Positions 61,638 to 62,195 of a DNA stretch of 64,000 bases are shown one piece after another. Position numbers and translations under genes: made by a program. Origin of the DNA: a phage. The notes under the pieces are model-generated. The model saw nothing but the letters and a program-made list of their open reading frames with translations. It did not search any database and was not told the DNA's origin. The stretch lies in sequence record PZ445454.1; one strand, written 5' to 3'. The first letter of the stretch is position 1. Every line of letters starts with the position of its first letter.

Positions 61638-62195
61638 ATGAGATATTTGAAGTATGCTTCATGGATTTTCCTAGCTTTACTAGAACCATTTGCAGCAACC
61701 CTAGCAGTCATCTTAGCACCTTTTGTAGTTCCATTCTACAGTGAGAAGAAAGGACATCTACCTTTTGGATTCAGATGGATGGAGACCTATGACAACCCGA
61801 TTGATGGTGATGAAGGCCACGTTAAAAGATGGGCTAAGATTAGAAAGATTGGTAAGCTGGGTGTCTACATGCAGAGAGTCGGATGGCTCTGGAGAAACAA
61901 AGCTTATAACTTCTCTTACCATGTATTAGGAAGAGATGTAAAAGATGTTACTAAGTGGAAAGGTAATATCAACGTAAGTTCTGACCCTGAAGATAATCAG
62001 ACAGGTTATCTCCTAATGTGGAACAACAATGCTTGGGGATTATTCGCTTTTATTCCGTCAATTAAAGTCTTTGGTAAACAGTTTTACTGGAGAATTTATG
62101 TTGGATGGAAACTAAAAAGTGTTGTCCCAGAAGAAAGAGCATTCTCAAGGGAAAGAGTTATGTTGGCATTCTTTATTCATCCACTGAGAAAGTAA
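61638..62195 (+). CDS. membrane-anchored hypothetical protein embedded in the tRNA array
   Basis: 185 aa; N-terminal TM helix; flanked on both sides by tRNA genes. Confidence 0.5.
   Translation: MRYLKYASWIFLALLEPFAATLAVILAPFVVPFYSEKKGHLPFGFRWMETYDNPIDGDEGHVKRWAKIRKIGKLGVYMQRVGWLWRNKAYNFSYHVLGRDVKDVTKWKGNINVSSDPEDNQTGYLLMWNNNAWGLFAFIPSIKVFGKQFYWRIYVGWKLKSVVPEERAFSRERVMLAFFIHPLRK

What the first reader, a model, noticed from the sequence alone, without database searches (positions are those of the whole stretch)
61638..62195. Membrane protein gene embedded within the tRNA array
A 185 aa ORF with an N-terminal TM helix lies between tRNA genes, and a second ORF (62647-63381) also interrupts the array. 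Protein genes inside tRNA clusters are often accessory or mobile cargo.
Basis: seen in the sequence. Interest (0 to 1): 0.35.

Follow-up and report, generated by a model that had tools for sequence, protein, structure and literature searches.

The report
Conserved membrane protein inside tRNA array
A real, conserved phage gene for a small inner-membrane protein of unknown function (Felix O1 gp48, family DUF7338) sits wedged between tRNA genes and is most likely read from the same transcript; it is already annotated in hundreds of phages, but may belong to the still unsolved cell-bursting machinery of Felix O1-like phages.

Summary
ORF 61638-62195 (185 aa) lies 19 nt after tRNA-Leu and 8 nt before tRNA-Gln. 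ORF 62647-63381 is packed the same way. The window is a Felixounavirus. ORF1 is Felix O1 ORF48, listed as a "membrane protein" in 2010 and called "holin" in phage Mushroom in 2015. It belongs to Pfam DUF7338.

It is a real gene. dN/dS is about 0.05. Its transcript was seen early in Felix O1. A YerA41 homolog was detected by mass spectrometry. Its knock-down is "Semi-Fit" in phage SUSP1.

The protein has an N-terminal transmembrane helix and a roughly 150-residue domain. The domain has invariant polar motifs and no fold match in the PDB.

The same gene sits beside same-strand tRNAs in Ounavirinae, Avunavirus, Otagovirus, several T4-like genera and an unclassified group. It is missing from the otherwise collinear tRNA junction of Erwinia Ounavirinae. 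In smaller phages, distant homologs lie between tail-fibre genes and lysis cassettes.

It is unrelated to the T4 T holin and coexists with it. My best reading is moderately confident: a periplasm-facing accessory of the lysis pathway, expressed from the tRNA precursor transcript. Function remains untested. The "mobile cargo" reading is only partly right.

The parts
58521..58550 (+). sigma-70-like promoter candidate just upstream of the first tRNA (TTGACA-18-TAAAGT with TG). A second candidate lies at 58431-58459.
   Evidence: Consensus scan only. Not tested.
58577..63556 (+). tRNA array of 25 genes that encloses both protein genes
   Evidence: ARAGORN, Rfam
59983..60011 (+). sigma-70-like promoter inside the array (TTGACA-17-TATAGT, 11 of 12). 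It has the same sequence as promoter P45 predicted in Felix O1.
   Evidence: Felix O1 paper PMC3185647, section 2.5.
61541..61618 (+). tRNA-Leu(CAA) with encoded CCA end. Its 3' end lies 19 nt before the ORF1 start.
61624..61629 (+). Shine-Dalgarno AAGAGG of ORF1, 8 nt before the ATG
   Evidence: Read from the sequence
61638..62195 (+). ORF1: DUF7338-family bitopic membrane protein. It is the ortholog of Felix O1 ORF48, SUSP1 agp134 and Mushroom gp87. 185 aa, 21.9 kDa, pI 9.9.
61641..61736 (+). Codons 2-33: the N-terminal transmembrane helix. P28 is near-invariant, W9 is mostly aromatic, and position 16 is mostly polar or acidic.
   Evidence: AF2 model. Family conservation.
61785..61811 (+). 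Codons 50-58: conserved loop TxD(N)xxxGD (T50, D52, G57, D58)
   Evidence: Conserved at 88-98% in 169 family members
61884..61907 (+). Codons 83-90: conserved WLxRNxxY (W83, R86 and N87 at 100%)
62103..62111 (+). Codons 156-158: conserved GWK at the end of a beta strand
62204..62279 (+). tRNA-Gln(UUG), starting 8 nt after the ORF1 stop. The spacing is the same in all 21 Felix-like loci examined.
62555..62630 (+). tRNA-Phe, ending 16 nt before the ORF2 start
62647..63381 (+). ORF2: DUF7217 protein, ortholog of Felix O1 ORF49 and SUSP1 agp133. 244 aa, acidic, predicted all-helical. SD AAAGGTG at 62636-62642.
63384..63476 (+). Class-II tRNA starting 2 nt after the ORF2 stop. It has a tRNA-Ser body but anticodon TCT in this window.
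63719..63736 (+). Terminator-like hairpin followed by a T run, after the last tRNA. It is the likely end of the array transcription unit.
   Evidence: Consensus scan only

Best explanation
SHOWN. ORF1 is a genuine, conserved, expressed gene of the DUF7338 family. It encodes a basic, Trp-rich protein of about 22 kDa. The protein has one N-terminal transmembrane helix and a roughly 150-residue alpha/beta domain. The confident AlphaFold model has no counterpart in the PDB. Three invariant polar motifs (TxD..GD, WLxRN..Y, GWK) look like an active or ligand-binding site.

INFERRED, expression. The gene has no room for its own promoter or terminator. It is therefore transcribed as part of the tRNA precursor from host-type promoters, early in infection. 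Its mRNA ends are set by tRNA processing: a 19-nt leader carrying the SD and an 8-nt trailer. This resembles tufB in the E. coli thrU-tyrU-glyT-thrT-tufB operon, or 'tRNA punctuation'.

INFERRED, topology. The protein inserts N-in/C-out, so the domain sits at the periplasmic face of the inner membrane.

INFERRED, function (least certain). It is an envelope-directed accessory of the lysis/release pathway, for example a lysis-timing or envelope-weakening factor. It is probably not the hole-forming holin itself, and it is not passive cargo. Its position next to tRNAs reflects where such single-gene cassettes are exchanged and expressed in large virulent phages.
For: Real gene
- Pfam DUF7338 at 206 bits and phrog_2143.
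- dN/dS 0.05-0.07.
- 597 phage records and 886 clusters at 50% identity hold relatives.
- The Felix O1 ORF48 transcript was detected, maximal at 5 min (PMC3185647 Table 3 and Table S1).
- YerA41 g185 (46% identical) is a middle-phase gene and was detected by LC-MS/MS (PMC7354516 Table S2).
- SUSP1 agp134 (96% identical to ORF1 by tblastn) is Semi-Fit on dCas13d knock-down: score 1.24, p 0.087. It is one of 27 of 138 genes with a phenotype (PMC11879866 supplement).

Structure
- pLDDT 93.6.
- No PDB fold or sequence match.
- Invariant residues listed.

Topology
- The N-flank is more positive than the C-flank in 100 of 169 members, against 34 the other way.
- The Mushroom paper states N-in/C-out.

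Co-transcription
- Spacers of 19 and 8 nt. The 8-nt trailer is identical in all 21 Felix-like loci; the upstream spacer is 18-19 nt in 12 of them and about 256 nt in 9.
- Promoter-like sites and a terminator-like hairpin bracket the array. One site equals Felix O1 P45.

Lysis link
- In 5-6 of 20 distant lineages an endolysin lies within 3 genes. Four different endolysin types are involved: GH108, M15, GH24 and amidase.
- The gene usually follows tail-fibre genes, and its start often overlaps the upstream late gene.
- A rough binomial gives p of 0.007-0.03.

Fitness
- The cost of knock-down contrasts with the T5 exclusion gene llp ('lpp' in that table), which is 'Not Fit' in the same study.
Against: - No experiment addresses function.
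- In this window the gene is 8 kb from the endolysin (53073-53537, opposite strand) and far from the spanin-like ORF.
- In T4-like phages it lies among early genes.
- Expression is early in Felix O1 and middle in YerA41, not late.
- The annotated lysis genes of SUSP1 are 'Not Fit', so a lysis role does not predict the Semi-Fit score.
- The guides against agp134 lie 6 nt from tRNA-Arg(UCU). The fitness effect could therefore come from disturbed tRNA maturation. agp137, which overlaps tRNAs, is also Semi-Fit.
- The association with lysis cassettes is only modestly significant. The equally frequent tail-fibre neighbourhood fits a receptor-related role as well.
- The topology evidence is weak. The domain is very basic (net +12), and the family shows no conserved disulfide.
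Confidence: 0.4

Rival explanations
1. It is the holin of Felix O1-like phages: a class III holin with one TMD, N-in/C-out, and a large periplasmic domain. It would accumulate in the inner membrane and trigger hole formation to release the endolysin. GenBank records for phages Mushroom, HP1, GEC_vB_B1 and HMD-P8 annotate it this way.
For: - Annotated 'holin' in Mushroom (CPT_Mushroom87). [quoted passage not shown]
- It has the same gross architecture and size class as T4 T.
- Ounavirinae have no identified holin, and their lysis 'remains a mystery' (PMC11879866 supplement).
- agp134 is Semi-Fit. In the same study the T5 holin is Fit while the endolysin is not.
- Distant homologs sit in or beside lysis cassettes.
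Against: - It shows no relation to T. Pfam and PHROGs give no holin hit. hhalign probability is 0.1%. The T periplasmic domain is in the PDB but does not appear among the 50 best listed of 76 fold matches (best E 0.44).
- It coexists with a bona fide T holin in phage Lw1 and other T4-likes (with L031).
- It is absent from most Erwinia Ounavirinae, which have the same missing-holin problem.
- Its transcript is early or middle.
- Invariant polar motifs across 886 clusters are unusual for holins.
- Distant cassettes already contain classical small 1-2 TMD holin-like ORFs next to it.
- SUSP1 agp027 is a better candidate. It is 65 aa and hydrophobic, lies right after the tail fibre, scores Fit 2.27 (p 0.0007), and gives tiny plaques.
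Confidence: 0.17
2. It is a superinfection-exclusion or receptor/envelope-masking protein. Made early, it would sit in the inner membrane and use its periplasmic domain to block DNA entry, or to alter an envelope component. That would exclude later phages or protect progeny from cell debris.
For: - Expression is early or middle.
- A bitopic inner-membrane protein with a periplasmic domain resembles T4 Sp and HK97 gp15 (my own knowledge, not tested here).
- It frequently lies directly after tail-fibre and tail-fibre-assembly genes. Cor and Llp exclusion genes lie in the same kind of place (my own knowledge).
- Every locus with a named host comes from a diderm bacterium: Proteobacteria and one Selenomonadaceae.
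- It is horizontally mobile between phage families.
Against: - Knock-down costs fitness in a single-phage screen, where the T5 exclusion gene is 'Not Fit'.
- In small phages its start overlaps the upstream late gene, so it is not an autonomously expressed moron.
- The domain is highly conserved across phages that use different receptors.
- PADLOC gives no hit.
Confidence: 0.2
3. It is a virion-associated or assembly factor linked to the tail fibres, for example a membrane platform for fibre or baseplate assembly.
For: - The YerA41 homolog is annotated 'structural protein' because it was found in the phage-particle proteome.
- Tail-fibre genes are its commonest neighbours in distant lineages.
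- One metagenomic protein (P0034) joins half of DUF7338 to a tail-fibre C-terminal domain.
Against: - The YerA41 preparation also contained polymerases, helicases, terminase and endolysin.
- Gp48 is not among the Felix O1 virion proteins.
- No PDB chain matches it by sequence. I did not check whether the Bas63 virion entries are in that PDB copy.
- P0034 looks like an assembly or recombination chimera.
Confidence: 0.08
4. It is neutral or selfish cargo of the tRNA array with no role in infection. The SUSP1 phenotype would be a side effect of blocking tRNA processing.
For: - Presence/absence at a collinear tRNA junction.
- Homing endonuclease genes populate the same arrays.
- Guide positions abut tRNA-Arg.
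Against: - dN/dS is about 0.05.
- It is fixed in roughly 210 Felixounavirus genomes.
- Invariant motifs hold over 886 clusters.
- No nuclease or mobility domain is present.
- Guides next to other tRNAs (agp133, agp135) give no phenotype.
Confidence: 0.05

Closest known systems
Pfam DUF7338 (PF24027) / PHROG 2143: Felix O1 ORF48, RB43 ORF080w, KP15_72, YerA41_123, SUSP1 agp134
   Same: Full-length, high-scoring member. It is 100% identical to the protein of Escherichia phage dune. Length, TM helix and motifs all match.
   Different: Nothing differs. The family itself has no assigned function.
Phage T4 holin T (class III holin; T5 holin is a relative)
   Same: Bitopic phage inner-membrane protein of about 200 aa with a large C-terminal domain predicted to be periplasmic. 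Some records annotate ORF1 as this kind of protein.
   Different: No sequence, profile or fold similarity. The cytoplasmic N-terminal segment is almost absent. It coexists with T in T4-like phages. Its transcript is early or middle rather than late.
T4 Sp (spackle), T4 RI antiholin and HK97 gp15: small membrane-anchored periplasmic phage proteins that control lysis or exclusion
   Same: Signal-anchor plus periplasmic domain architecture, made by virulent or temperate phages, acting on the envelope. This comparison rests on my own knowledge.
   Different: No homology was detected in any library searched. ORF1 is about twice the size and carries enzyme-like invariant residues. No functional test exists.
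tRNA-mRNA co-transcription units: the E. coli thrU-tyrU-glyT-thrT-tufB operon, the T4 tRNA cluster with its ORFs, and mitochondrial 'tRNA punctuation'
   Same: A protein-coding segment is flanked directly by tRNAs on the same strand. tRNA processing should therefore define the mRNA ends.
   Different: This was not demonstrated here. The spacers (19 nt and 8 nt) are unusually tight for a bacterial or phage mRNA. Nothing is known about the effect on mRNA stability or translation.
HNH homing endonuclease genes inside phage tRNA arrays (Felix O1 ORF44, 45 and 47; SUSP1 agp136)
   Same: Protein genes that interrupt the same arrays and differ between close relatives.
   Different: ORF1 has no nuclease domain. 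It is fixed within the genus and under strong purifying selection.

Membership tests
DUF7338 (PF24027) | Full-length match to the family HMM above the curated cut-off | tested here: met
   E 4.1e-61, 206.2 bits against a cut-off of 27. Residues 1-184 align to profile positions 1-176 of 180. phrog_2143 matches at E 9e-81.
DUF7338 (PF24027) | N-terminal TM helix plus the conserved motifs TxD..GD, WLxRN..Y and GWK | tested here: met
   All are present in the window protein. They are conserved at 86-100% in 169 members.
T4-type (class III) holin T | Sequence or profile homology to gpT (Phage_holin_T) | tested here: not met
   No Pfam hit other than DUF7338 at E up to 1. hhalign probability is 0.1%. 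tblastn of T against the window finds nothing better than E 2.2.
T4-type (class III) holin T | Fold of the periplasmic domain as in 6PSK, 6PX4 and 6PXE | tested here: not met
   The T structures are in the PDB copy. Foldseek of the pLDDT 93.6 model gave a best E of 0.44 and TM below 0.2. No T chain appears among the 50 best listed of 76 matches.
T4-type (class III) holin T | Single TMD with N-in/C-out topology | tested here: inconclusive
   One predicted helix covers residues 2-33. Charge bias favours N-in in 100 of 169 members, against 34. No dedicated topology predictor or experiment was available.
Holins in general (functional class) | Late expression together with the endolysin | tested here: not met
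   Felix O1 ORF48 is maximal at 5 min by RT-PCR, though that list also contains capsid genes. The YerA41 homolog is 'middle' while its endolysin is 'late'. The window endolysin is 8 kb away on the other strand.
Holins in general (functional class) | Lethal, energy-poison-triggerable membrane permeabilisation that releases the endolysin | not testable with these tools
   This needs expression and lysis assays.
Lysis-cassette component (by gene context) | Recurrent adjacency to endolysin, holin or spanin genes in unrelated phages | tested here: met
   In 5-6 of 20 distant lineages an endolysin lies within 3 genes, and four endolysin families are involved. The rough p is 0.007-0.03. This does not hold in the window itself.
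Superinfection exclusion proteins | Dispensable for a single-phage infection; blocks a second phage | tested here: inconclusive
   The SUSP1 ortholog is Semi-Fit, which argues against dispensability, but a tRNA-processing artefact is possible. No exclusion assay exists.
Mobile or accessory cargo of tRNA arrays | Presence/absence polymorphism at an otherwise collinear site | tested here: met
   Between genera: Felix O1 has tRNA-Arg|ORF48|tRNA-Gln, while Pistou has tRNA-Arg and tRNA-Gln 2 nt apart.
Mobile or accessory cargo of tRNA arrays | Variable among close relatives; associated mobility gene | tested here: not met
   It is present in all 21 Felix-like loci at an identical 8-nt spacing before tRNA-Gln. 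About 210 records hold it at 95% identity or more. No endonuclease was seen in this window's array.

The most novel reading that the evidence does not exclude
DUF7338 is the missing, non-canonical lysis factor of Felix O1-like phages. It would be a new-fold protein anchored in the inner membrane, with a periplasmic catalytic or binding site, that controls or executes envelope breakdown. Its mRNA would be carved out of a tRNA precursor by RNase P and 3' processing. That would tie its dosage and timing to tRNA-array expression, and explain why the gene travels with tRNA arrays between unrelated virulent phage families.
Probability: 0.15. Interest if true: 0.7.

Novelty: already known. Interest (0 to 1): 0.35.

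Why it matters
The gene itself is not new. It was listed as a conserved hypothetical membrane protein of Felix O1 in 2010. It is in Pfam and PHROGs, and several records label it 'holin' without evidence.

What this check adds:
- The 'holin' label has no homology or structural basis.
- The family is large, has a confident model with no known fold relative, and carries enzyme-like invariant residues.
- It recurs in two contexts: directly downstream of same-strand tRNAs in large virulent phages, and at the junction between tail-fibre genes and the lysis cassette in smaller phages.

Ounavirinae still lack an identified holin, and the ortholog is one of few unknown genes with a knock-down phenotype. 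It is therefore a reasonable and cheap target for lysis and exclusion assays. The tight tRNA-SD-ORF-tRNA packing also offers a simple system to test whether tRNA processing shapes phage mRNA expression.

Tried and rejected
Searches that gave nothing
- Fold search of the confident ORF1 model against the PDB: no hit (best E 0.44). Against BFVD: family members only.
- Profile and single-sequence searches of PDB sequences: nothing.
- NCBIfam and PADLOC: no hit for ORF1.
- Literature search for 'DUF7338': no papers.

Annotations and leads I rejected
- The BFVD label 'Envelope protein' on one family member has no support from any search here, so I disregard it. Separately, a weak PDB sequence-profile match to flavivirus M protein (E 0.37) is chance.
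- YerA41's 'structural protein' means only 'detected in a phage preparation that also held replication enzymes'.
- Domain fusions. The longer family members have no second Pfam domain. P0081 carries a Cys-rich C-terminal extension with a 'CDKHDNCY' motif that reminded me of phospholipase A2. Pfam and PDB searches of that tail found nothing, so it stays an untested lead.
- I first guessed that L027 (a 121-kb contig) was T5-like. It is Avunavirus Av-05.

Other dead ends
- The bacterial-genome scan gave only 6 loci with the narrow pattern used. One is evidently a T4-like phage contig filed under Flagellimonas. It says little about prophage distribution.
- The Felix O1 'Gp49 structural protein' could not be mapped safely to ORF2. 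The paper assigns it a 51-kDa band, but ORF49 is 244 aa, about 26 kDa.
- The ORF2 structure model is poor (pLDDT 62) and its fold search is uninformative. Hits to tape-measure, ZorA and apolipoprotein families are coiled-coil or low-complexity noise.
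Full report
**1. Observation**

ARAGORN finds 25 tRNA genes, all on the + strand, between 58577 and 63556. Rfam confirms them.
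- ORF 61638-62195 (ATG, 185 aa) lies between tRNA-Leu(CAA) 61541-61618 and tRNA-Gln(UUG) 62204-62279.
- The tRNA ends in an encoded CCA. Five bases later comes AAGAGG (61624-61629), and 8 nt after that the ATG.
- The TAA stop is followed 8 nt later by the next tRNA.
- The second ORF has the same design. tRNA-Phe ends at 62630, AAAGGTG sits at 62636-62642, the ATG at 62647 and the stop at 63381. The next tRNA starts at 63384.

The longer GTG-started version of ORF2 would overlap tRNA-Phe.

**2. Identity and reality of the gene**

The window is a Felixounavirus. The 2.2-kb region is 97% or more identical to many Escherichia and Salmonella Felix O1-like phages. ORF1 is 100% identical to a protein of Escherichia phage dune.

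ORF1 is the ortholog of:
- Felix O1 ORF48 (28262-28819), listed in that paper's Table S1 as 'CHP; membrane protein, 185 aa, pI 10.1, 60.9% to RB43ORF080w';
- SUSP1 agp134;
- Mushroom gp87.

It matches Pfam DUF7338 (206 bits against a cut-off of 27) and phrog_2143, both of unknown function. Against orthologs, dN/dS is 0.05-0.07. The family is large: 597 phage records and 886 clusters at 50% identity in the 1.84-billion-protein library. Nearly all members are 160-215 aa with a single domain.

**3. Protein anatomy**

AlphaFold2 with 29 homologs gives pLDDT 93.6 and pTM 0.84. The model has one long helix (residues 2-33), five short helices and a five-stranded antiparallel sheet.
- Foldseek finds nothing in the PDB (best E 0.44, TM below 0.2). 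In BFVD it finds only family members.
- Sequence and profile searches of the PDB are empty.
- Across 169 full-length members, the near-invariant residues are P28, L41, P42, W47, T50, D52, G57, D58, W83, R86, N87, Y90, G109, G123, G156, W157 and K158.
- These form three polar motifs that look like an active or binding site. They suggest the protein is more than a membrane anchor.
- The protein is basic (pI 9.9; the domain has net charge +12). It has 10 Trp and no Cys.
- Flank charges favour N-in/C-out: 100 members against 34. This agrees with the published statement for Mushroom, but the evidence is weak.

**4. Expression**

Nineteen nucleotides upstream and eight downstream leave no room for a private promoter or terminator.
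- sigma-70-like sites lie before the array (58431-58459 and 58521-58550) and inside it (59983-60011).
- Terminator-like hairpins lie before the array (58423-58454) and after it (63719-63736).
- The internal site has the sequence of promoter P45 proposed for Felix O1. The upstream hairpin corresponds to its terminator t42.

In Felix O1, RT-PCR detected ORF48 and ORF49 transcripts, maximal at 5 min. That 'early' list also contains capsid genes, so the timing is only indicative. In YerA41 the homolog (g185, 201 aa, 46% identical) is a middle gene. Its protein was detected by LC-MS/MS. That preparation also held polymerases and the endolysin, so 'structural protein' is not justified.

I infer that ORF1 is translated from the tRNA precursor or from a fragment released by tRNA processing. 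This is known for tufB in E. coli and for the T4 tRNA cluster (established knowledge, not tested here).

**5. tRNA linkage and mobility**

The gene lies directly downstream of a same-strand tRNA in the following phages and loci:
- all 21 Felix-like loci, always 8 nt before tRNA-Gln, with 18-19 or about 256 nt after tRNA-Leu or tRNA-Arg;
- a second Ounavirinae-like contig, L026, between tRNA-Asp and tRNA-Ser;
- Avunavirus Av-05 (79% identity);
- Pseudomonas Otagovirus phiPsa315 (25% identity; tRNA-Val|gene|tRNA-Trp);
- the T4-like genera around KP15 and RB43 (600-1000 nt), JS10 (233 nt), PG7 (inside the array), S13 and S16;
- an unclassified group with a PolA gene (17-263 nt).

Taking three of these groups as independent, chance placement has a rough probability of 3e-5.

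Av-05 shares tRNA-Gly, an 85-nt segment, the gene and tRNA-Gln in the same order as the window. Blocks of array therefore appear to have moved together.

The Erwinia Ounavirinae phage Pistou has the same tRNA order, Val-Leu-Arg-Gln-Leu-His. Its tRNA-Arg and tRNA-Gln lie 2 nt apart with no ORF between them. ORF2 homologs occur in 33 Erwinia records, but Erwinia does not reach the top ten organisms for ORF1.

The gene is therefore a single-gene cassette gained or lost at tRNA junctions over long time spans. Within Felixounavirus it is fixed. YerA41-like and jumbo phages carry it away from any tRNA.

**6. Distant homologs**

In 20 further lineages (25-45% identity) the commonest neighbours are tail-fibre and tail-fibre-assembly genes upstream. 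In 5-6 lineages an endolysin lies within three genes:
- GH108 with an Rz spanin (L087);
- Peptidase_M15_4 (L092);
- SAR-type GH24 (L057 group);
- GH24 with a holin-like ORF and an Rz-like spanin (L078 group);
- an amidase, with the gene placed between a two-TMD holin-like ORF and the endolysin (L062 group).

The rough binomial p is 0.007-0.03. The start codon often overlaps the upstream late gene, so in these phages it is part of the late operon and not an autonomous moron. Hosts, where named, are diderm.

**7. Functional data from the literature**

In the transcriptome-wide dCas13d screen of SUSP1:
- agp134 is 'Semi-Fit' (1.24, p 0.087, 3 guides) and agp133 (ORF2) is 'Not Fit';
- the authors note that lysis genes give no phenotype, that Ounavirinae lack an identifiable holin, and that their lysis 'remains a mystery';
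- the T5 holin is Fit, and the T5 exclusion gene llp ('lpp' in that table) is Not Fit.

One caveat applies. The guides abut tRNA-Arg(UCU), and another Semi-Fit 'gene' (agp137) overlaps tRNAs. Disturbed tRNA maturation is therefore an alternative cause.

A stronger holin candidate exists in SUSP1. agp027 is 65 aa and hydrophobic, lies directly after the tail fibre, scores Fit 2.27 (p 0.0007) and gives tiny plaques. It is followed by agp028, which has a TMD and a coiled coil, is labelled 'putative holin' and is Not Fit.

**8. The 'holin' label**

The label traces to the Mushroom annotation and rests on topology alone.
- ORF1 has no similarity to T4 T (hhalign probability 0.1%).
- Its model does not match the solved T domain, which is in the PDB.
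- It coexists with a T holin in Lw1 and other T4-likes.
- The window contains other small TMD ORFs: 23053-23259 with two TMDs, 43256-43588 with a TMD and a coiled coil, and an i-spanin-like ORF at 38455-38802. The endolysin is at 53073-53537 on the opposite strand.

**9. Ranking**

| Reading | Confidence |
|---|---|
| Periplasm-facing accessory of the lysis/release pathway, expressed from the tRNA precursor | 0.40 |
| Superinfection exclusion or envelope masking | 0.20 |
| The holin itself | 0.17 |
| Virion or assembly factor | 0.08 |
| Functionless cargo | 0.05 |

That the gene is real, conserved and encodes a membrane protein co-transcribed with tRNAs is much more certain, at about 0.9.

**10. 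ORF2**

- It belongs to DUF7217 / phrog_2114.
- It is conserved as the gene between the tRNA array and the small ORF plus terminase in all Ounavirinae.
- It is also found in Ackermannviridae, where it is not next to tRNAs.
- It is acidic. The model is helical but of low confidence (pLDDT 62), and no fold or PDB sequence match was found.
- It is Not Fit in SUSP1.
- Whether it is the 'Gp49' structural protein of Felix O1 is unclear. That protein was a 51-kDa band, while ORF49 is about 26 kDa.

**11. Verdict**

This is an ordinary, already annotated conserved hypothetical gene, correctly spotted. The 'mobile cargo' reading holds only between genera and families. The interest is moderate. It rests on the unknown fold and function, the unfounded 'holin' label, the recurring tRNA and lysis-cassette contexts, and the open question of how Felix O1-like phages lyse their hosts.

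Noticed in passing
window 63384-63476 (+): This class-II tRNA has the body of the tRNA-Ser(GCU) found in 19 other Felix-like loci. It carries a single G-to-T change at anticodon position 34, giving anticodon UCU, so ARAGORN calls it tRNA-Arg. The variant is absent from all 109 fetched loci and from IMG/VR. The best of 290 GenBank phage records is 99.4% identical, that is 1 mismatch in 181. It is either a sequencing error or a tRNA that could insert Ser at AGA/AGG codons, because SerRS ignores the anticodon (my own knowledge).
   Followed up: partly
window 61370-61464 (+): A 95-nt spacer between tRNA-Thr and tRNA-Val folds into a stable long hairpin (-30.7 kcal/mol, z -2.96). It is 83% conserved next to tRNA-Gly in the unrelated Avunavirus Av-05. 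It may be a structured RNA or a processing element within the array.
   Followed up: partly
window 60115-60304 (+): A weak tmRNA-like Rfam match: 15 bits, E 0.004, far below the gathering score. It lies in a 338-nt gap of the array. ARAGORN finds no tmRNA here. The Mushroom paper states that Felix O1 encodes an ssrA-like tmRNA.
   Followed up: no
window 56997-58412 (+): The gene immediately upstream of the tRNA array encodes a DUF2828/DUF7788 protein (phrog_850, 'RNA-binding protein'). It is missing at the syntenic position just upstream of the array in Erwinia phage Pistou, within the 10.7 kb examined. It is 'Not Fit' in SUSP1 (agp131).
   Followed up: no
loci L008-L012, L018, L019, L021, L025 (Felix-like phages): Nine of 21 Felix-like loci carry about 238 extra nucleotides between tRNA-Arg and the DUF7338 start. 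In the other loci the spacer is 18-19 nt. This is a variable segment right at the 5' boundary of the gene.
   Followed up: no
SUSP1 locus L109 22942-23510 (agp027, agp028): Directly after the tail-fibre gene lie two ORFs: a 65-aa hydrophobic ORF (agp027) and a 124-aa ORF with a TMD and a coiled coil (agp028, 'putative holin'). agp027 is strongly Fit with tiny plaques on knock-down. It looks like a better candidate for the missing Ounavirinae holin than DUF7338.
   Followed up: partly
protein P0081 (288 aa, metagenomic DUF7338 member): It carries a roughly 100-residue Cys-rich C-terminal extension with the motif CDKHDNCY, followed by a second hydrophobic helix. The motif recalls phospholipase A2 active sites, but Pfam and PDB searches found nothing. 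If real, it would argue that the DUF7338 domain is extracytoplasmic.
   Followed up: partly
Felix O1 paper versus locus L096 8272-9006 (ORF49): The paper assigns a 51-kDa virion band to 'gp49' and speculates that it is the sheath. ORF49 (DUF7217) is 244 aa, about 26 kDa. This is either a numbering slip or an SDS-stable dimer.
   Followed up: partly
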